Shown here: one piece after another, positions 1 to 18,840 of the stretch
How the letters are laid out: every line of letters begins with the position of its first letter
Position numbering within the stretch: the first letter of the stretch is position 1
Source: a virus
Lineage: Duplodnaviria; Heunggongvirae; Uroviricota; Caudoviricetes
Length of the DNA stretch: 64,000 bases
Reading direction: 5' to 3' (one strand)
Virus record (IMG/VR): IMGVR_UViG_2511231131_000001
Position numbers and translations under genes: made by a program
The notes under the pieces: model-generated
What the model was told of the DNA's origin: nothing
Seen by the model: the letters and a program-made list of their open reading frames with translations, nothing else
The model's database searches: none

Positions 1-248
1 CTGCACAGAATGATGCAATTCAGAATATTGTTGGTTCTTTCGGGCGTACTCAGCTTTTTAGAGATGTACTTAGTTCAGGGCCATTTAGTCAACATGGTCA
101 AGTATTATCTACAGGCCTAAAGGAAACGGAAATTATTGAGGGTTATGGCGCTTATAACTGGACATTCGACGCCTCTCGCTCAGTTCGTACAGCATCTGAA
201 ACCCGCCCACGCAACATTGCGTTTAATTACATCGTAAGGGCAGCATGA
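1..248 (+). CDS. silent tail-fibre C-terminal variable cassette A, 5' truncated by window edge
   Basis: Frame 3..248 reads ...ETRPRNIAFNYIVRAA*, the same conserved C-terminus as S and cassettes B-D. Confidence 0.55.
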   Translation, partial: AQNDAIQNIVGSFGRTQLFRDVLSSGPFSQHGQVLSTGLKETEIIEGYGAYNWTFDASRSVRTASETRPRNIAFNYIVRAA

Positions 249-267
249 AAACGTTGGTTTGGGGGAA
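242..267 (+). other. candidate site-specific inversion crossover site (AGCATGAAAACG-TT-GGTTTGGGGGAA)
   Basis: Two 12-bp half-sites around a TT core; right half GGTTT..GAA resembles hix/gix/cix half-sites; the same site recurs at each cassette junction. Confidence 0.4.
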
Positions 268-765
268 GGCTCAGCATTGCCTGTTGGCGTACCTGTTCCG
301 TGGCCCTCAGCCACTCCGCCAACAGGCTGGCTAAAATGCAACGGAGCAGCTTTTTCTGCTGAAGAATACCCAGAACTGGCAAAGGCTTATCCCACCGATA
401 AATTACCGGATTTACGCGGTGAGTTTATTCGCGGCTGGGATGACGGACGTGGTGTGGATGCGGGGAGAACAATATTATCCGCTCAAGGTGATGCCATACG
501 TAATATCTATGGTGAGTTCAAGACTGTAAATACTGAAAATTATTCAATATGGGAATCAGTAGGCTCGTTTAAGGGGGCAGTGGTGCCTTTAAATCCCTCA
601 ACAAACAATAGTTATTTTTCCTTAGTCAGAAGTATGGTGACAGAAAGGACAGACGGCGCTGTTTACCCAAAAGTGATTGGCCTTGATGCTTCAAAAATTG
701 TTCCAACTGCAAACGAAAACCGCCCACGCAACATTGCGTTTAATTACATCGTAAGGGCAGCATGA
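259..765 (+). CDS. silent tail-fibre variable cassette B
   Basis: GEGSALPVGVPVPWPSATPPTGWLKCNGAAFS...DLRGEFIRGWDD shared with S C-terminal domain; ends RPRNIAFNYIVRAA; reading frame continuous through the crossover site. Confidence 0.55.
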   Translation: MGEGSALPVGVPVPWPSATPPTGWLKCNGAAFSAEEYPELAKAYPTDKLPDLRGEFIRGWDDGRGVDAGRTILSAQGDAIRNIYGEFKTVNTENYSIWESVGSFKGAVVPLNPSTNNSYFSLVRSMVTERTDGAVYPKVIGLDASKIVPTANENRPRNIAFNYIVRAA

Positions 766-784
766 AAACGTTGGTTTAGGGGAA
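759..784 (+). other. candidate crossover site (AGCATGAAAACG-TT-GGTTTAGGGGAA)
   Basis: Repeat of the 242..267 site at the B/C junction. Confidence 0.4.
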
Positions 785-805
785 GGATCGGCGCTGCCCG
801 TTGGT

Positions 806-1279
806 GTGCCTGTTCCGTGGCCCTCAGCCACACCACCAACGGGGTGGCTGAAATGTAACGGAGCAGCATTTTCTTCTGAAAAGTACCCAAATCTGGCAAA
901 GGTTTACCCAACGTTAAAATTACCTGATTTACGCGGTGAGTTTATCCGTGGTTGGGATGATTCGAGAGGGATTGATACAGGGCGTTCATTGCTAAGTGGT
1001 CAGACTGCAACATTTATTCGTACAGCTTTGCAGGATTATTACGGTTACGATCTGAATACTAATGTCAAAGTAGGTATCGCTTATGCTACTGCTGATTCTG
1101 TTATAACTGTTGGAAACCCTGCTAATCCTAAAGCAGGAAATAATAGCGATTATGTTCCAGCATCATCAGATAACTCCATAACAGGCACTCAAAGGACGGC
1201 AGAGGATAATTTTACCGGGGCATGGATATCAATGCGCCCCCGCAACGTTGCTTTTAATTACATTGTAAGGGCCACATAA
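806..1279 (+). CDS. silent tail-fibre variable cassette C
   Basis: Frame is open from 770 (GLGEGSALP...); conserved N- and C-terminal blocks, divergent middle; ends RPRNVAFNYIVRAT. Confidence 0.55.
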   Translation: MPVPWPSATPPTGWLKCNGAAFSSEKYPNLAKVYPTLKLPDLRGEFIRGWDDSRGIDTGRSLLSGQTATFIRTALQDYYGYDLNTNVKVGIAYATADSVITVGNPANPKAGNNSDYVPASSDNSITGTQRTAEDNFTGAWISMRPRNVAFNYIVRAT

Positions 1280-1298
1280 AAACGTTGGTTTGGGGGAA
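1273..1298 (+). other. candidate crossover site (CACATAAAAACG-TT-GGTTTGGGGGAA)
   Basis: Third direct copy of the junction site. Confidence 0.4.
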
Positions 1299-1748
1299 GG
1301 CTCGGCACTGCCCGTTGGCGTGCCTGTTCCGTGGCCCTCAGCCACACCACCAACGGGGTGGCTGAAATGTAACGGAGCAGCATTTTCTTCTGAAAAGTAC
1401 CCAAATCTGGCAAAGGTTTACCCAACGTTAAAATTACCTGATTTACGCGGTGAGTTTATCCGTGGTTGGGATGATGGGCGAGGTGTGGATGCGGGAAGGG
1501 GCATCTTAAGCATACAGGGGTGGTTAACAGGAAGTCATTATCATAATATTCGGTCATGGGACGCGTGGGATAACACGGTATTGGTGCCAAATGACAGAGG
1601 GGGGGATAGTCTGTTGTCGACAGATAACGCCGTCCAAGAAGGAGCGATTAATGGTAAATTTACCAGTCAATACAGAACGGAGTTATCTGGGGGGAATGAA
1701 ACCCGCCCACGTAACATTGCCTTCAATTATATTGTGAGAGCAGCATAA
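1290..1748 (+). CDS. silent tail-fibre variable cassette D
   Basis: Same conserved ends as B and C; stop overlaps the start of the downstream assembly gene (TAATG). Confidence 0.55.
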   Translation: MGEGSALPVGVPVPWPSATPPTGWLKCNGAAFSSEKYPNLAKVYPTLKLPDLRGEFIRGWDDGRGVDAGRGILSIQGWLTGSHYHNIRSWDAWDNTVLVPNDRGGDSLLSTDNAVQEGAINGKFTSQYRTELSGGNETRPRNIAFNYIVRAA

Positions 1749-2359
1749 TGGATAATGCGATATTAAATAGCGAACTTATAGCCATACAGGCAGGAAACAT
1801 TATCGTTTATAACTATGATGGTGGTAATCGGGAATATATTTCTGCATCAACTGAATATCTTGCTGTTGGCGTTGGTATTCCGGCAAATTCTTGTTTGGAT
1901 GCTCCAGGCTCACATAAAGCAGGTTATGCGATTCTCCGTTCAGAGGATTTAAGTTCATGGGAGTATGTGCCAGATCATCGTGGCGAAACTGTCTATAGCA
2001 TTGACACTGGGAATCCCGAAGAAATCACGGTGTTGGGTGACTATCCGGAAAATACAACCACTATCGCCCCGCTAACACCATACGACAAATGGGATGGAGA
2101 GAAATGGGTGGTTGATACTGAGGCTCAACATAGTGCAGCTGTAGAGGCAGCAGAAACAAAACGTCAGTCATTGATTGATACTGCGATGGCTTCCATTAGT
2201 CTGATTCAGTTGAAATTACAGGCTGGACGGAAGTTGACGCAGGCAGAAACCACACAGCTTAACTCCGTGCTAGATTATATAGACGAGCTGAACGCGATGG
2301 ATTTAACCACGGCACCAGATCTCAACTGGCCTGAAAAACAACTTTCTGCAGCCAGTTGA
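1748..2359 (+). CDS. tail fibre assembly chaperone (U/Tfa-like)
   Basis: 203 aa; position directly after a fibre cassette; C-terminal region resembles Tfa-family chaperones; converges on the S stop. Confidence 0.55.
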   Translation: MDNAILNSELIAIQAGNIIVYNYDGGNREYISASTEYLAVGVGIPANSCLDAPGSHKAGYAILRSEDLSSWEYVPDHRGETVYSIDTGNPEEITVLGDYPENTTTIAPLTPYDKWDGEKWVVDTEAQHSAAVEAAETKRQSLIDTAMASISLIQLKLQAGRKLTQAETTQLNSVLDYIDELNAMDLTTAPDLNWPEKQLSAAS

Positions 2360-2364
2360 TATAA

Positions 2365-4515
2365 TTAAGCCGCCCTCACAATATAATTAAATGCAATATT
2401 ACGAGGGCGGGTTTCTAAGCCAGCAGTACCTAAATTAGCTACGGACTGTTTATATGTTTTAAAAGTTCCATAATTAGGGGCTGGCAATCCTGCATCGCTT
2501 GTGTTCCCCCATCTGATAACTCCCGTATTACCACTAGTAGCCCATGCCTCGTCAAAGTAGAAATTAATTGAGCTGTCAGTTGCTACGGTTGATTTTGACG
2601 GTAATCCGTGAGCATGATCCTCCGTTGCATATCCTTGCTCGCTTAAAATAGAGCGACCAGAGTCAATCCCTCGCCCATCATCCCAACCACGGATAAACTC
2701 ACCGCGTAAATCCGGTAATTTATTGATGGGATAAGCCTTTGCCAGTTTGGGATACATTTCAGAAGAAAATGCTGCGCCGTTACATTTCAGCCACCCTGCT
2801 GGCGGTGTGGCTGAGGGCCACGGAACAGGCACACCAACGGGCAGCGCCGAGCCTTCTCCTAAACCAAGGTAATCAAGAACGCTCTGAATACTGGTCTTAC
2901 CAAGAATGGCGCGTCCGACACTTGTCAATGCAGTTAACGCGGCACGATCAACACCTGTGAAATAAGGGAGTTTATCTGCTGCTGTAGCTAGTGCCGCTAG
3001 AGCAGTGAGCGTAGCGTCTGCCGCTTGCTTTCCATTAGCCAAATCATATGCAGCCTTGACAGCTTTCGGTGTGGCGGCCAGCACTTCGGACGTGCTATTA
3101 GTAGCACTGCTGAGTTGGACTATCCCTTTTTGAGCCGTGGTTGCATCCTGGGCTGTATACTTCCCGTTAGCCAGGTCATATGCTGCCTTGACTGCTTTCG
3201 GTGTGGCGGCCAGCACTTCGGACGTACTGTCAGTAGCACTACTGAGCTGAGTGATGCCTTTCGCTGTCAATGAAGCTGTTGGCACACCAGTGATCTGATT
3301 CCAGGGATGTGTATGACTGGATGGTGCCTTTCCGGCAGCTAGATCGTATGCAGCTTTAACCGCTTTTGGAGTTGCAGCTAATGTTTCAGAAGTGCTGTTG
3401 GTGTCGCTACTGAGCTGAACTATCCCTTTTTGTGTCGTGGTTGCATCCTGGGCTGTATACTTCCCGTTAGCCAGGTCATATGCAGCCTTGACAGCTTTCG
3501 GTGTGGCGGCCAGCACTTCAGACGTGCTGTTAGTGGCACTACTGAGCTGAGTGATGCCTTTCGCTGTCAATGAAGCTGTTGGCACACCAGTGATCTGATT
3601 CCAGGGATGTGTATGACTGGATGGTGCCTTTCCGGCTGCTAGATCGTATGCAGCTTTAACCGCTTTTGGAGTTGCAGCTAATGTTTCAGAAGTGCTGTTA
3701 GTGTCGCTACTGAGCTGAACTATCCCTTTTTGTGTCGTGGTTGCATCCTGGGCTGTATACTTCCCGTTAGCCAGGTCATATGCAGCCTTGACAGCTTTCG
3801 GTGTGGCGGCCAGCACTTCGGACGTACTGTTAGTGGCACTACTGAGCTGAACTAATCCCTTTTGCGTTGTGCTTGCATCCTGCGCCGTATACTTGCTTTT
3901 CGCCAGATCGTAGGCTTTTTTAACTGCCAGCGAACTCGCAGCAACATCACTTCTGGTACTGGTTACAGAGTCTGAAATATCAATGCCGATCGTGCGGTTG
4001 ATACGCTCGGATGTATCAATCATCTCTTGAGTAATGGTAGATACGCCAGCAGGGATATTCACCGTACAAACCAGCAGTTCCCCATCACCTAACTGATATG
4101 AATCGGTATAGGTTCTGGCAACAAATTCAGCTGCATGAATATGTGACGCGGTATTCACCTGATAGGTATCTTCTCCAAGAAGGTATCTTCCCTTCAGCAC
4201 AATTGCATATTTCTTGCCTGCGTTAAGTGCAAGAGAGATATCCTTACGATGCTGAATAGTTACCTGGTAGAATTCACCAATATCCACTGACGCCGCGCCA
4301 GCGGTTTTATCTCCATCCACTGAGGTGATTAACAGGTTCATCCCACCGCCAGGCTTAGGCAAGAAACCAGCATAAAATCCCGGGTCAACAATTCCCCTGA
4401 ATTTTCGGTTTAGAGCGGCTGACAGATATGGTTCGTGGTATTGCACATCAGCCACCAGAGCCAACGACTCGGGTGATGGGTAAGTAACCGATGTAACAAC
4501 TGTAACGTCATTCAT
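2365..4515 (-). CDS. S: tail fibre protein S (constant part plus currently expressed variable C-terminus)
   Basis: Starts MNDVTVVTSVTYPSPESLALVADVQYHEPYLSAALNRKF as P1 S (recalled); track start at 4602 would overlap R, so the ATG at 4513-4515 is preferred; KAVKAAYDLA repeats; C-terminus homologous to cassettes. Confidence 0.8.
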   Translation of the reverse strand: MNDVTVVTSVTYPSPESLALVADVQYHEPYLSAALNRKFRGIVDPGFYAGFLPKPGGGMNLLITSVDGDKTAGAASVDIGEFYQVTIQHRKDISLALNAGKKYAIVLKGRYLLGEDTYQVNTASHIHAAEFVARTYTDSYQLGDGELLVCTVNIPAGVSTITQEMIDTSERINRTIGIDISDSVTSTRSDVAASSLAVKKAYDLAKSKYTAQDASTTQKGLVQLSSATNSTSEVLAATPKAVKAAYDLANGKYTAQDATTTQKGIVQLSSDTNSTSETLAATPKAVKAAYDLAAGKAPSSHTHPWNQITGVPTASLTAKGITQLSSATNSTSEVLAATPKAVKAAYDLANGKYTAQDATTTQKGIVQLSSDTNSTSETLAATPKAVKAAYDLAAGKAPSSHTHPWNQITGVPTASLTAKGITQLSSATDSTSEVLAATPKAVKAAYDLANGKYTAQDATTAQKGIVQLSSATNSTSEVLAATPKAVKAAYDLANGKQAADATLTALAALATAADKLPYFTGVDRAALTALTSVGRAILGKTSIQSVLDYLGLGEGSALPVGVPVPWPSATPPAGWLKCNGAAFSSEMYPKLAKAYPINKLPDLRGEFIRGWDDGRGIDSGRSILSEQGYATEDHAHGLPSKSTVATDSSINFYFDEAWATSGNTGVIRWGNTSDAGLPAPNYGTFKTYKQSVANLGTAGLETRPRNIAFNYIVRAA
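2854..2879 (-). other. candidate crossover site inside S (reads TTCTTGATTACC-TT-GGTTTAGGAGAA on minus strand)
   Basis: Left half 10/12 identical to hix left half TTCTTGAAAACC; inverted relative to the three cassette sites; TT core in the same codon position. Confidence 0.45.
3030..3900. repeat. tandem repeat, about 300-bp unit in about 3 copies, built from 100-bp subrepeats, within S
   Basis: ccaggtcatatgc.gccttgac.gctttcggtgtggcggccagcacttc recurs at about 3171, 3471 and 3771; encodes repeated ...TPKAVKAAYDLAxGK... blocks. Confidence 0.8.
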
Positions 4516-4526
4516 CAAGCATATCC

Positions 4527-4961
4527 TTATGCTGTAGTCGAGTTTATGGCCATAACTGCGGTATATGTTTTGCCCACATACAGCGAGTCTTCCTGGACAC
4601 AAATAATGGCGATTGGCTTATTCTCGTTATCCAGAACAACCAGAGTGTTGAATGGGTAGTTTTTCCCTTCCTGCAACTGACTTTGATCAAGGTCCATTCG
4701 GACAGTAATTATCCCGCCTGAGTAGGTTGGGACGAGGTTGATGGTGCAAAATTGACTGGTCAGTTCTGCCAGATCGAAAGCCTTTGGCAGTTCTCCAATC
4801 TCATAAGTGCCATCTCCTTTCTTAGTAACCAGTGAACTGGTACCGAAAACGGCCTTGCTGATTAAAAATCGAGAGCCTTTGTTAATGGACGATTCAGCGC
4901 GCCGCTGATAGTAATAGTCCAACAACTGACTCTTATAGAGGTTTGTTGAGACGTCAGACAT
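4527..4961 (-). CDS. tail-fibre-associated structural protein (P1 R position)
   Basis: 144 aa, immediately upstream of S in the same operon; name by synteny only. Confidence 0.45.
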   Translation of the reverse strand: MSDVSTNLYKSQLLDYYYQRRAESSINKGSRFLISKAVFGTSSLVTKKGDGTYEIGELPKAFDLAELTSQFCTINLVPTYSGGIITVRMDLDQSQLQEGKNYPFNTLVVLDNENKPIAIICVQEDSLYVGKTYTAVMAINSTTA

Positions 4962-5039
4962 GATTTTCCCTAATCAATGTTGTGAAGCCTCATTGTAAGA
5001 TAAGTAACTTGTCACCCCGCCCTGCGGACGGGGTGATTG

Positions 5040-5879
5040 TCACGCATCGCTATCCAACAGCAAATCATCTGCGCGGGTGCGATCAAACGTAGGCGTTGCT
5101 TTCACAATAGTGCCGCCCGGCGTTGCAGTGATCGGGGCGTTAATCGACGTAACTTCAGTAAGCGAAGTTGTATCCGAAGTTTCAAACCAGCAGAATGCTT
5201 TTTCGGTATCAGAAATCTCATTCAAAGTGATCATGTCGGCCTGTTCATTTACAACAACCGACAAATAGAGCGTAAGCCCATCAAACACTATATGCAGTGG
5301 CAGTAGAGGCTTTACGAACTGATTAAACTTTCTGAGAATTTCTTCTGTAATTGCGGACTGATCTATCGTTCCAGTAATACCCATTGTCCGGGCCAGGTCG
5401 TTTATGGGAATACTGATCATTCCTCTGGAAGTCAGAAACATCTCGCCGAATGTGCCGCCGGTGGTTTCCAGTGTGCTTTCTGGAATCAGGACCGTGCCAT
5501 AGGGATGACGTTCAAAGTCCACCGGAGCATATATGGGATCCCATAAAACCGATATACCGTTAAATTCGCGATAAATTGTCTGGTTTATAGGGCGTTCAGT
5601 ACCCTTAAAATGGATCTCATCAAACCGCTGTTGTAACAACATCGGAACGGAAGATGAATTCGACGTTCTGATAGTAAAAAACTGGCCAAGTTCATTTGTC
5701 CTAGTCTCCAGATCCTCCTTGCTCATGGAGAAAATAGACTTCCGGTTGGTAATTCGCTCCAACCATGGGTCAACAAAGGTGTCCATCATTGACTGAACCA
5801 AATCAGCCAATGATTTATAAAGTAATGACTTTTGCTTAGCTGATGTAAGCCGGTTATTAAACCAGGAACGCTGCATCAC
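5040..5879 (-). CDS. baseplate protein (gpI-like position, P1 gene 16 by synteny)
   Basis: 279 aa between the J-like gene and the fibre genes; 4-bp overlap with upstream gene. Confidence 0.4.
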   Translation of the reverse strand: MMQRSWFNNRLTSAKQKSLLYKSLADLVQSMMDTFVDPWLERITNRKSIFSMSKEDLETRTNELGQFFTIRTSNSSSVPMLLQQRFDEIHFKGTERPINQTIYREFNGISVLWDPIYAPVDFERHPYGTVLIPESTLETTGGTFGEMFLTSRGMISIPINDLARTMGITGTIDQSAITEEILRKFNQFVKPLLPLHIVFDGLTLYLSVVVNEQADMITLNEISDTEKAFCWFETSDTTSLTEVTSINAPITATPGGTIVKATPTFDRTRADDLLLDSDA

Positions 5880-7309
5880 TCCTCCTCATACGAAATATTA
5901 AAGGTGGAGTTTTCTGTATCCAGATAAACGAAATCGTAAAAGCCGTTGGACTCATTCCACTCGACAAATTCCAGATAAAAGTCGCGGAAATAACCCAGCG
6001 TTTCGATAAATGCCCAAACGTCTTTTTTCTTGATTAGGATGTACTTGCCGACACGGTTCGGATCAAAGAAAGTTGAGTCACGCCCAAATTTTGTTTCCAG
6101 TGCCGACTTCAGCTCATCAGTCACGTTCTCAATGGTCAGGCTTGCCGATATCCGCCCAGTGATGGTGATCTTAAAGGGGAGTTTTCTGACCTCTTTATAC
6201 GAGAATTTCTTGTTCAACTCATTCGGCACCTTCTTAAAGGCAGCCAGGATCATTTCTTCAAGCTCTGACTGGCTTTTGTTTGGATGCCATCCTGAAATAA
6301 ATATCTTATTGATATTCCGAACATTATAAGCACCATCTAATTTCTCTTGCTGGCCTTCGCCCCATGCCTTTACCCAGGACAGTCCCGGGATGTTACGCAC
6401 CAGAAAATACGTATAGTCCCCGCCCCATACGACCTGATCATCATAGGCAAGGTAATATTGTGCACGATTACGTGTGATCTCCGTTGTTTCGGCATCGGTA
6501 CCTGCGGTTATGGGTGTCGTTGTCTTAACTGAAATCAAATTAGCTAAATTAGCCGCAGAATCGACAGGAGTCAGGTTTTGGCCAGCAACCAGGGTTATAT
6601 CTCCGTTGGTGCACCATACCTTAAGTGTAATGGTCGAGCCTTCTGGCGGTATTTGCCCAATTAGCCCATCACCGAATCGAACCCCCAACTGCTCGGATGG
6701 CTTATAAAACTCAACGTAGACCTGGCTTTTACTACCGGCTAACCGGAACATAGTGCTGGAAGACCACTGCGTGGTCTTACCATCGGTCGTCACGAATACT
6801 TCCAGCTTACAGCAGACAGCAGTGAGAGCCTTTGATAACACGACTTCCAGAAATTCTTTGGCTGCCGTAACGGTATATGTCACCTCCTGGATTTCCAACT
6901 GTGCCACTTCTACCGTACCGGTGCCGTCAACCAACCTGCATACATCCATAGTCATGTAAGGGTACTGGTCGTCAGATATTAAAGGCATGTTTTTGGGGAT
7001 TACCGCTGGGGCATCTTCACTTGTGGCGGTGATCTCAATCATCCCCGATGACGGTGTTGGCTTGGTACCAACGTAACTATTCGTTTCTGCCGCTGCCAGG
7101 ATAGAGGAACGCCGCGTCGCGGTCGATATAAAGCCTTCAGCCAGCGCCGCATCGGCATACTGAAAGCACCTGTAGACAATCTGGGTAATAAACAATGTCA
7201 GCATCGAGACAAATTGAGAGCCGACAAACTTCGACCAGAATGAATCTTTCTCGACAAGCTCTTCAAACTCTGCACGAATACTGTCTTTAGTCGGTGTTGT
7301 TTTACTCAT
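5876..7309 (-). CDS. baseplate J-like protein
   Basis: 477 aa; canonical position W-J-I-fibre in a contractile-tail module. Confidence 0.45.
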   Translation of the reverse strand: MSKTTPTKDSIRAEFEELVEKDSFWSKFVGSQFVSMLTLFITQIVYRCFQYADAALAEGFISTATRRSSILAAAETNSYVGTKPTPSSGMIEITATSEDAPAVIPKNMPLISDDQYPYMTMDVCRLVDGTGTVEVAQLEIQEVTYTVTAAKEFLEVVLSKALTAVCCKLEVFVTTDGKTTQWSSSTMFRLAGSKSQVYVEFYKPSEQLGVRFGDGLIGQIPPEGSTITLKVWCTNGDITLVAGQNLTPVDSAANLANLISVKTTTPITAGTDAETTEITRNRAQYYLAYDDQVVWGGDYTYFLVRNIPGLSWVKAWGEGQQEKLDGAYNVRNINKIFISGWHPNKSQSELEEMILAAFKKVPNELNKKFSYKEVRKLPFKITITGRISASLTIENVTDELKSALETKFGRDSTFFDPNRVGKYILIKKKDVWAFIETLGYFRDFYLEFVEWNESNGFYDFVYLDTENSTFNISYEEE

Positions 7310-14799: not shown

Positions 14800-15113
14800 G
14801 TATTTTTAAGTCACGAATGCTATCTTTTCGCATCATATTGACCTTTTAATCGTTCAGGCTTATAGTTCCGCCGTCGTAGCAAATTCTGCGACCGGGTTTA
14901 GCAGCCTGAATGATTGTGCGGACAGCCGCAGATATCCGATATTGCGGTATTTTTGTGTCCGTAAAACCGCGTTACGCCCAAATTATGGTGGGGCGTGATG
15001 GGGAGGCTTCGGCCTGCTGGTTTCACAATCGCCAGTCTGCTAACCCCGTCACGTCCTGCCACCTGTTTAGCAGCGGGTAGCAGGTTGTTAAACCTGATTG
15101 TGAGGCCGTAACT

Positions 15114-18510: not shown

Positions 18511-18633
18511 TACAATCGTTGCGGGTGCTTGAGGCTATCTGCTTCAGGCATTACCCGAAAAGCAGATAGAAGAAAGCCCCAGATAACATTACGCGTCCTG
18601 CAAGACGCTTAACATTAATCTGAGGCCATATCT

Positions 18634-18840
18634 ATGCTTAGCATACGTAGATTAGCCTCTTACCGACCAAAAGGTCAAGGAGAAGCAGGCTATGAAGCAG
18701 CAAAAAGCGATGTTAATCGCTCTGATCGTCATCTGTTTAACCGTCATTGTGACGGCACTGGTAACGAGGAAAGACCTCTGCGAGGTACGAATCCGAACCG
18801 GCCAGACGGAGGTCACTGTCTTCACAGCCTACGAATCTGA
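18634..18840 (+). CDS. mok-like overlapping reading frame of the hok locus
   Basis: 68-aa ORF overlapping hok out of frame, as in hok/mok/sok loci. Confidence 0.3.
   Translation: MLSIRRLASYRPKGQGEAGYEAAKSDVNRSDRHLFNRHCDGTGNEERPLRGTNPNRPDGGHCLHSLRI

What the first reader, a model, noticed from the sequence alone, without database searches (positions are those of the whole stretch)
1..2880. Multi-cassette invertible tail-fibre locus: at least four silent 3' cassettes plus four candidate crossover sites
S on the minus strand ends in a variable domain. On the plus strand, cassettes A (partial), B, C and D each begin with the same 65-aa block (GEGSALPVGVPVPWPSATPPTGWLKCNGAAFS...DLRGEFIRGWDD) and end with RPRNIAFNYIVRAA, with divergent middles. 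At each cassette start, and in inverted orientation inside S, sits a 26-bp pseudo-palindrome with a TT core whose right half (GGTTTrGGrGAA) resembles hix/gix/cix half-sites; the S-site left half is 10/12 identical to hixL. The TT core occupies the same codon position everywhere, so inversion between the S site and any cassette site fuses a new receptor-binding domain in frame. Classical P1 and Mu have two alternatives; this layout implies five or more, as in the Min system of the P1-related plasmid p15B. The recombinase is not in the window and is expected just upstream of position 1.
Basis: partly seen in the sequence, partly recalled or inferred. Interest (0 to 1): 0.75.

Follow-up and report, generated by a model that had tools for sequence, protein, structure and literature searches.

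The report
Min-type multi-cassette tail-fibre inversion switch
This is the tail-fibre host-range switch of a P1-like phage-plasmid: a DNA invertase can flip any of five alternative receptor-binding ends onto one tail-fibre gene. It is real and correctly read, but it is the "Min" multiple-inversion system described for plasmid p15B in 1990-92, so it is not new.

Summary
The window is identical to the last 64 kb of E. coli O55:H7 RM12579 plasmid p12579_1 (NC_017653.1).

Window 1-2880 holds four promoter-less tail-fibre 3' cassettes on the + strand (A partial, then B, C, D) and one tail-fibre-assembly gene (U). It also holds the 3' end of gene S on the - strand, which carries a fifth cassette, E.

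A 26-bp crossover site with a TT core sits at the start of B, C and D, and inverted inside S. A fifth site, the start of A and a 190-aa serine invertase lie 212-864 bp upstream of window position 1 in the source record.

Two of the five sites match published p15B mix sites 26/26; the others match 23-24/26. In-silico inversions give in-frame S proteins of 703-719 aa. The layout allows 48 isomers, and the same counting rule gives the published 240 for p15B's six sites.

Two sibling Klebsiella plasmids with the identical invertase differ by exactly two inversions at these sites, so the system is active in nature.

Verdict: an already known system. The one loose end is that a single chaperone gene serves five cassettes.

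The parts
1..248 (+). Silent cassette A, 3' part only. Its start and its crossover site lie upstream of the window, at NC_017653.1 29779-29804.
   Evidence: The variable middle is 98% identical to a cassette of pMCR_SCKP-LL83.
242..267 (+). Crossover site at the start of cassette B: AGCATGAAAACG TT GGTTTGGGGGAA. The TGA stop of cassette A lies inside its left half.
   Evidence: 23/26 to published p15B mix sites.
253..765 (+). Silent cassette B (170 aa, counted from the codon that holds the TT core). Tail Collar domain plus a divergent tip.
   Evidence: 99% identical and fused to S in p886Rt_IncY. 97% identical (variable middle) to the expressed fibre end of a Peduovirus.
759..784 (+). Crossover site at the start of cassette C: AGCATGAAAACG TT GGTTTAGGGGAA.
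   Evidence: 24/26 to mix sites.
770..1279 (+). Silent cassette C (169 aa).
1273..1298 (+). Crossover site at the start of cassette D: CACATAAAAACG TT GGTTTGGGGGAA.
   Evidence: Its reverse complement is 26/26 identical to published mixN''O'.
1284..1748 (+). Silent cassette D (154 aa). It is one end of the double-ended invertible module D-U/E.
1748..2359 (+). Tail-fibre assembly (U/Tfa-type) gene, 203 aa. It is the only one in the locus. Its ATG overlaps the stop of D (TAATG), and it is convergent with S/E.
   Evidence: Pfam Caudo_TAP, E = 2.7e-30. Annotated as tail fiber assembly protein in the source record.
2365..2868 (-). Cassette E (167 aa), currently fused to the constant part of S and therefore the expressed receptor-binding end.
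2854..2879 (-). Crossover site inside S, on the + strand TTCTCCTAAACC AA GGTAATCAAGAA. It is inverted relative to the cassette sites.
   Evidence: 24/26 to published mixQ''R'; the Sc-side half GGTAATCAAGAA is identical.
2869..4515 (-). Constant part of tail-fibre gene S (Sc). It has seven Phage_fiber_2 repeats and 300-bp tandem repeats at 3085-3850.
   Evidence: About 96.5% identical to P1 S/R/16/bplA over window 3827-6000.
4527..4961 (-). Gene R homologue, the small ORF upstream of S in the same late operon.
4992..5010 (-). P1-type late promoter LPs (AAGTTACTT N4 TACAAT), which drives R-S.
   Evidence: Exact match to the annotated P1 LPs elements.

Best explanation
Window 1-2880, together with about 870 bp just upstream in the source plasmid, is a Min-type multiple DNA-inversion switch for the tail fibre of a P1-like phage-plasmid.

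**How it works**
- A Din-family serine invertase acts on 26-bp sites that all share the same TT/AA core. It is 190 aa, has Ser9, a resolvase domain and an HTH_7 domain, and is 74% identical to Cin.
- One site sits inside gene S, at the boundary between the constant part and the receptor-binding end. The other four sit at the 5' ends of promoter-less 3' cassettes.
- Recombination between any two inverted sites flips the DNA between them. When the S site takes part, a different cassette is joined in frame to S.
- The phage population therefore carries five alternative fibre tips (A-E) and presumably several host ranges.

**Architecture**
- There are three single cassettes (A, B, C) and one double-ended module (D-U/E). 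This gives 4! x 2 = 48 isomers.

**Shown here:** the anatomy, frame conservation, site identity to mix sites, the presence and intactness of the invertase, and natural inversion isomers in sibling plasmids.

**Inferred:** that this particular plasmid switches, that the reaction depends on Fis and the enhancer, and that the five tips bind different receptors.
For: **Source and backbone**
- The window is identical to NC_017653.1.
- The backbone is P1-like: R, S, 16, bplA, sit and the LPs late promoter are present.

**Invertase**
- It has Resolvase (E = 2e-51) and HTH_7 (E = 3e-15) domains and is 74% identical to P1 Cin.
- Its 5' end is 59/71 identical to P1's annotated recombinational enhancer. 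That is the same 83% the P1 record states for p15B.
- The exact protein is seen on at least 1000 contigs.

**Sites and frames**
- Exact-motif sites occur only at cassette starts and in S. Chance expectation is 0.00.
- Matches to published p15B mix sites (PMC3241671) are 26/26, 26/26, 24/26, 24/26 and 23/26.
- All four possible fusions to S are in frame.
- The 48-isomer model reproduces p15B's published 240 when given six sites (the figure of 240 is from my memory of the Sandmeier 1990/1991 abstracts).

**Natural isomers**
- NZ_LR890206.1 and NZ_LR890724.1 have the same length and the same invertase accession. They differ at 2339 positions.
- Two in-silico inversions at the core dinucleotides reduce this to 4 SNPs, all outside the invertible region.
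- The crossover intervals are bounded to 7 and 16 nt.
- p886Rt_IncY has cassette B in the expressed position.
- pMCR_SCKP-LL83 has the identical invertase. Its authors report its region as 99% identical to p15B min (PMC5786510).
Against: - There are no read-level data for this plasmid, so its own switching is not demonstrated.
- The p15B sequence itself (X62121) is not in the searchable collections. Identity to Min therefore rests on published site sequences and on a proxy plasmid.
- Only one chaperone gene (U) is present. In the present configuration, and in 24 of the 48 configurations, it is antisense to S transcription. No late promoter was found on its strand.
- It is therefore not clear that every configuration yields a functional fibre.
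Confidence: 0.93

Rival explanations
1. Frozen relic. The cassettes, sites and invertase are inherited from a Min-type ancestor, but this plasmid no longer switches, for example because the prophage is defective, the invertase is not expressed or the enhancer is inactive. The silent cassettes would then be dead cargo.
For: There is no direct evidence of isomers for p12579_1. Only one record at 99% identity or more exists in the plasmid and E. coli collections. Venturini et al. (PMC6906374) describe P1-like plasmids with degraded switches.
Against: The invertase ORF is intact and 100% identical to the one in plasmids that demonstrably differ by site-specific inversions. All five cassettes are open reading frames, and all five sites keep the shared core.
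Confidence: 0.05
2. The rearrangements come from RecA-dependent homologous recombination between the 230-260-bp inverted copies of the conserved N-block. On this view the invertase and the 26-bp sites play no part.
For: Inverted repeats of 230-249 nt at 80-85% complementarity exist between S and each cassette.
Against: In the natural isomer pair both inversions can be reconstructed exactly with crossovers at the core. The crossover intervals are limited to 7 and 16 nt at the extreme 5' edge of the homology, and no chimeric N-blocks are seen. An invertase gene and mix-identical sites are conserved next to the cassettes in every locus examined.
Confidence: 0.02
3. Assembly artefact. The tandem cassettes would result from mis-assembly of a two-cassette P1-type C segment.
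For: The cassettes share long near-identical blocks, which are hard for short-read assemblers.
Against: Each cassette has a unique middle, only 17-33% identical to the others. The same architecture, with 5-9 sites, recurs in independently sequenced complete plasmids and in 193 plasmid records. The cassette variable regions recur at 96-100% identity elsewhere.
Confidence: 0.01

Closest known systems
Min multiple DNA-inversion system of plasmid p15B of E. coli 15T- (Sandmeier, Iida, Arber and co-workers 1990-1992; GenBank X62121)
   Same: - P1-related plasmid backbone.
- A serine invertase gene lies next to the cassettes and is transcribed divergently from them.
- One site lies in the constant S gene, and the others lie at the 5' ends of tandem promoter-less 3' cassettes.
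- Site sequences are identical or nearly identical to the published mix sites (26/26 for two of them).
- There is one double-ended segment plus single-cassette segments.
- A late promoter and a small ORF (R) lie upstream of S.
- A truncated second invertase 5' fragment lies beside the invertase (that p15B has such a fragment, psi-win, is from my memory of the 1991 abstract).
   Different: - Five sites and five cassettes (48 isomers) here, against six sites and six cassettes (240 isomers) in p15B.
- Cassette B has no close counterpart in the p15B-like region of pMCR_SCKP-LL83 (best 36%).
- A direct alignment with X62121 could not be made.
Cin / C-segment of phage P1, and Gin / G-segment of phage Mu
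   Same: The invertase belongs to the same Din family (74% identity to Cin). The logic is the same: a constant S 5' part is fused to alternative 3' parts at a 26-bp site with a 2-bp core. The enhancer lies inside the invertase gene. The flanking genes are the same as in P1.
   Different: - P1 and Mu have two sites and two alternatives, and each alternative has its own chaperone gene (Sv-U and Sv'-U') within a 3-4.2 kb segment.
- Here there are five sites, short 150-170-aa cassettes and a single U.
- The invertase gene points away from the invertible DNA, whereas P1 cin points towards it.
R64 shufflon (Rci)
   Same: Multiple inversions among several sites assemble alternative C-termini on one constant gene (pilV), giving many isomers.
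   Different: Rci is a tyrosine recombinase with asymmetric sfx sites, and the target is a conjugative pilus adhesin. Here the enzyme is a serine invertase (Resolvase domain) and the target is a phage tail fibre.
Two-site invertible tail-fibre segments of E. coli prophages (e.g. EC958 Phi2, PMC4134206) and P2-like phages (Salmonella phage MET_P1_103_31)
   Same: The collar-type cassettes and the right half-sites are the same kind (GGTTTAGGAGAA / GGTTTGGGGGAA). The variable middle of cassette B is 97% identical to the expressed fibre end of the Peduovirus.
   Different: These are simple two-site switches in which each cassette is followed by its own assembly gene. They lie in a different phage backbone.

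Membership tests
Din-family serine DNA invertase systems (Hin/Gin/Cin/Pin/Min) | Small (about 180-200 aa) serine recombinase with an N-terminal resolvase catalytic domain (active-site Ser about position 9-10) and a C-terminal HTH | tested here: met
   The 190-aa protein in the source record ends 292 bp upstream of window position 1. It has Resolvase (E = 2.1e-51) and HTH_7 (E = 3.4e-15) domains and the motif IRVS9TNDQ. It is 74% identical to P1 Cin. It is not inside the window itself.
Din-family serine DNA invertase systems (Hin/Gin/Cin/Pin/Min) | 26-bp imperfectly palindromic crossover sites with a 2-bp core that is identical in all partner sites | tested here: met
   There are five sites (four in the window), all with a TT/AA core and an AAAC(C/G)-TT-GGTTT centre. 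They are 20-26/26 to published mix/cix/pix sites.
Din-family serine DNA invertase systems (Hin/Gin/Cin/Pin/Min) | Recombining sites lie in inverted orientation around the invertible DNA | tested here: met
   The S site is on the - strand and all cassette sites are on the + strand.
Din-family serine DNA invertase systems (Hin/Gin/Cin/Pin/Min) | Fis-dependent recombinational enhancer, usually within the 5' part of the invertase gene | tested here: inconclusive
   The corresponding 71 nt are 59/71 identical to the enhancer annotated in P1 cin. Fis binding and enhancer activity cannot be tested in silico.
Din-family serine DNA invertase systems (Hin/Gin/Cin/Pin/Min) | Inversion actually occurs (isomeric DNA populations) | not testable with these tools
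   No reads are available for this plasmid. There is indirect support: NZ_LR890206.1 and NZ_LR890724.1 carry the identical invertase and differ by exactly two inversions at such sites.
p15B Min multiple-inversion system | More than two crossover sites: one in the constant tail-fibre gene, the rest at the 5' ends of alternative 3' cassettes, so that overlapping segments invert | tested here: met
   There are five sites and five cassettes. All four S x cassette inversions are in frame, and a breadth-first search of the model gives 48 reachable isomers.
p15B Min multiple-inversion system | Site sequences are those of the published mix sites | tested here: met
   Site A is 26/26 to mixMl''L'. Site D is 26/26 to mixN''O'. 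The S site is 24/26 to mixQ''R', with an identical Sc-side half. Sites B and C are 23-24/26.
p15B Min multiple-inversion system | The invertase is Min | tested here: inconclusive
   X62121 is not in the collections. The protein is 100% identical to that of pMCR_SCKP-LL83, whose inversion region its authors report as 99% identical to p15B min over 92% coverage (PMC5786510). The UniRef100 representative is Q05517_ECOLX, 'DNA-invertase'. The enhancer-region identity to P1 equals the value the P1 record gives for p15B.
p15B Min multiple-inversion system | P1-related plasmid backbone with a late promoter and small ORF upstream of the variable gene | tested here: met
   About 96.5% identity to P1 across S(c)-R-16-bplA. 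LPs matches exactly at window 4992-5010. An R homologue lies at 4527-4961.
P1 Cin C-segment (two-state switch) | Exactly two cix sites flanking one segment that carries Sv-U and U'-Sv' | tested here: not met
   There are five sites, short cassettes and a single U. No site matching this motif is found in the P1 locus.
Shufflon (R64 type) | Tyrosine recombinase Rci acting on sfx sites | tested here: not met
   The adjacent recombinase is a serine resolvase/invertase-family protein.

The most novel reading that the evidence does not exclude
The locus has one chaperone (U/Tfa) gene for five fibre tips. It sits inside the double-ended module, so it is co-oriented with S in only 24 of the 48 configurations and never when tip E is expressed. 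No late promoter was found on its strand.

If U is needed and is transcribed only from the S late promoter, the switch would have a second, hidden layer. Half of the isomers, including the one in this record, would make fibres without their chaperone, giving phenotypically 'off' or altered virions.

Alternatively, some collar-type tips would be chaperone-independent. Neither possibility, to my knowledge, has been worked out for Min-type loci.
Probability: 0.15. Interest if true: 0.4.

Novelty: already known. Interest (0 to 1): 0.2.

Why it matters
It matters mainly as a correct annotation. RefSeq labels these genes only as "phage tail protein" (x4) and "recombinase family protein". In fact they form a five-way host-range switch of a P1-like phage-plasmid carried by an O55:H7 E. 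coli.

Min-type loci with 5-9 sites are widespread: 193 plasmid records match this region, and the exact invertase is seen on at least 1000 contigs. This has three practical consequences:
- Assemblies of such plasmids capture arbitrary isomers.
- The annotated 'tail fiber protein' differs between otherwise identical plasmids.
- Host-range predictions for these AMR-carrying phage-plasmids should consider all cassettes.

No new biology is implied.

Tried and rejected
- **p15B sequence.** I tried to fetch X62121 directly, but it is not in the collections.
- **Original Min and P1 papers.** I tried to read PMC53420, PMC329034, PMC206102, PMC523184 and a review. None is held. The published mix sites were therefore taken from Table 3 of PMC3241671.
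- **Promoter for U.** I looked for a P1 late promoter on the + strand that could drive U in the present orientation. The first pattern had the wrong spacing. With the right spacing, only LPs (upstream of R-S) and LPdar (upstream of the lysis genes, outside the window) match exactly, and nothing faces U. The sigma-70 scan gave fewer promoter-like sites than shuffled sequence, so it is uninformative.
- **Extra sites.** Relaxed patterns found no further crossover sites in the 64 kb.
- **Partner chaperone for E.** I looked for one through E-like fibre ends in phage genomes. There is no close homologue outside P1-like elements, and the annotation of the one P1-like phage hit is too fragmented to use.
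- **Rejected explanations.** Assembly artefact, the homologous-recombination-only explanation and a shufflon are rejected for the reasons given under the rival explanations and the membership test.


Full report
**Where the window comes from.** Window 1-6000 matches plasmid p12579_1 of E. coli O55:H7 RM12579 (NC_017653.1). A base-by-base comparison gives 0 mismatches over 12,000 bases, with window position 1 equal to record position 30016. The record is 94,015 bp, so the window is its last 64 kb. That is why the locus is cut at position 1. The flanking genes are those of phage P1: S constant part, R, 16, bplA, pmgA and sit, at about 96.5% identity. The P1 late promoter LPs is conserved exactly at window 4992-5010 on the - strand.

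**Checking the observation.**
- On the + strand lie the end of cassette A (1-248), then B (253-765), C (770-1279) and D (1284-1748).
- These are followed by a 203-aa Caudo_TAP tail-fibre-assembly gene, U (1748-2359; E = 2.7e-30).
- On the - strand lies S (2365-4515, 716 aa), whose last 167 codons form a fifth cassette, E.
- An alignment of the five cassettes shows an almost invariant 78-aa N-terminal block. This is a Pfam phage tail Collar domain (E about 1e-15).
- The alignment also shows a conserved RPRN(I/V)AFNYIVRA(A/T) end. The middles are only 17-33% identical.
- The 16-nt motif TTGGTTTRGGRGAAGG occurs four times in 64 kb, at 254, 771 and 1285 (+) and at 2852-2867 (-). None of 100 shuffles gave a match. 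No further copies appear even with three mismatches allowed.
- The TT core is codon position 2-3 in every copy.
- The stop codon of each silent cassette lies inside the left half of the next site.

**The missing pieces are just upstream.** In the source record:
- A fifth site, AAGACTAAAACG TT GGTTTGGGGGAA, and the start of cassette A lie 212-237 bp upstream of window position 1.
- A 190-aa recombinase gene starts 292 bp upstream and reads away from the cassettes.
- The protein has Resolvase and HTH_7 domains, Ser9 in IRVSTNDQ and 74% identity to P1 Cin.
- Its first 120 nt are 88% identical to cin. The 71 nt that correspond to P1's annotated recombinational enhancer are 59/71 identical. The P1 record quotes the same 83% for p15B.
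- A 94-nt fragment lies beside the gene. It is 76% identical to the 5' end of the invertase gene and carries an in-frame stop. From memory, p15B has such a pseudo-invertase ("psi-win") next to min. I could not check this.

**What it is.** The published crossover sites of the p15B Min system are listed in Table 3 of PMC3241671. Compared with them:
- Site A is 26/26 identical to mixMl''L'.
- Site D is 26/26 identical to mixN''O'.
- The S site is 24/26 to mixQ''R', and its Sc-side half is identical.
- Sites B and C are 23-24/26.

Zhou et al. (PMC5786510) report that the inversion region of pMCR_SCKP-LL83 is 99% identical to p15B min over 92% coverage. That plasmid's invertase is 100% identical to the one here. 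It also carries cassettes A, C, D and E at 96-99% identity in their variable middles.

**How it works.** I inverted, in silico, the DNA between the S site and each of sites A-D, cutting at the core. Every product gives an uninterrupted S protein of 706, 719, 718 or 703 aa, all with the junction ...LDYLGLGEGSALPVG....

I then treated the region as three single cassettes plus one double-ended module (D-U/E) lying between two fixed ends. A breadth-first search over all inversions between oppositely oriented sites reaches 48 configurations, which is 4! x 2. The same rule gives 5! x 2 = 240 for six sites. That is the number I remember from the p15B papers, so the architecture is the same.

Din invertases favour inversion over deletion through the Fis/enhancer synapse. 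This is established knowledge that I did not test here. It would explain how four directly repeated sites persist.

**Evidence that such loci really switch.** Two Klebsiella plasmids from one hospital, NZ_LR890206.1 and NZ_LR890724.1, are both 95,815 bp. Both carry the same invertase accession as p12579_1 and have eight sites each.
- In the 12-kb region I compared they differ at 2339 positions.
- After two in-silico inversions at site cores (S site x sixth site, then the two sites flanking the double-ended module), only 4 differences remain. All four are SNPs in the constant part of S.
- Polymorphisms next to the cores confine the crossovers to 7 and 16 nt. That is at the very edge of the 230-bp homology, which argues for site-specific rather than homologous recombination.
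- A further plasmid, p886Rt_IncY (nine sites, same invertase), has cassette B (99% identical) fused to S. It is followed on the same strand by A-like, C, D and U. The model predicts this state.

**How common it is.** The region matches 193 plasmid records and 1372 of 5426 complete E. coli genomes, the latter including prophage collar cassettes. The exact invertase sequence is recorded on at least 1000 contigs. Cassette B, which is absent from the p15B-like proxy, occurs in 24 plasmids. It is also the expressed fibre end of a P2-like Salmonella phage that has its own hin gene and a two-site switch. This fits the known exchange of fibre modules between phage families.

**What remains open.**
- Switching of this particular plasmid is inferred, not shown.
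- There is only one U gene. It follows D and converges on E, so it is antisense to S transcription in the present state and in half of all configurations. It is never co-oriented with S when E is expressed.
- No P1-type late promoter faces U.
- In four of the five public states I examined, U is antisense to S.
- I could not decide whether U is expressed some other way or whether some tips do not need it.

**Comparison and verdict.** Against P1 Cin and Mu Gin, the enzyme family, site type and fusion logic are the same. The differences are five sites rather than two, short cassettes, a single chaperone gene and a divergently oriented invertase gene. Against the R64 shufflon, the combinatorial logic is alike but the enzyme class differs. 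Against p15B Min, I found only quantitative differences: five sites and cassettes rather than six, and one different cassette.

Interest is low (0.2).

Noticed in passing
window 1748-2359 (+), relative to 2365-2868 (-): There is only one tail-fibre assembly (U/Tfa) gene for five cassettes. It follows D and is convergent with E, only 5 bp from the stop of E. It is antisense to S in the present state and in 4 of the 5 public configurations examined. No late promoter was found on its strand.
   Followed up: partly
L001 5060-5153 (+), i.e. NC_017653.1 about 28844-28937, upstream of the window: A 94-nt fragment is 76% identical to the 5' end of the invertase gene and carries an in-frame TAG. It lies between the holin genes and the 3' end of the invertase gene. 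It looks like a truncated second invertase gene. From memory, p15B has a 'psi-win' pseudo-invertase next to min.
   Followed up: partly
window 253-765 (+); L006 (OQ383618.1) 3989-4512: The variable part of cassette B is 97% identical to the expressed tail-fibre end of a P2-like (Peduovirus) Salmonella phage that has its own hin gene and a two-site switch. The pMCR_SCKP-LL83 Min region lacks it. This is an example of cassette traffic between P2-like and P1-like elements.
   Followed up: partly
L003/L004 (NZ_LR890206.1, NZ_LR890724.1), L005 (MF510496.1), L007 (NZ_CP080083.1): The number of crossover sites varies among P1-like plasmids that carry the identical invertase: 5 here, then 8, 9 and 9. 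This implies 48 up to about 80,640 (8! x 2) theoretical isomers. RefSeq annotates the silent cassettes only as 'phage tail protein'.
   Followed up: partly
window 3085-3850: The constant part of S contains a 300-bp tandem repeat (2.6 copies, 95% matches) built from Phage_fiber_2 repeats. It corresponds to the a/b repeated elements annotated in P1 S. Copy number probably varies between relatives.
   Followed up: no
window 5876-7309 (-): RefSeq names this gene 'bleomycin hydrolase', but it is the positional and sequence homologue of the P1 baseplate gene bplA. This is probably a propagated mis-annotation.
   Followed up: no
window 18523-18697 (+); 14860-15066 (+); 35369-37598 (+): Rfam and ARAGORN find a sok antitoxin RNA (115 bits), the P1-type C4 antisense RNA with its a1/b1 targets, and three tRNA genes (Asn-GTT, Thr-TGT, Met/Ile-CAT). 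From memory, C4 and the tRNAs are typical of P1. A hok/sok module is not something I associate with P1 itself.
   Followed up: no
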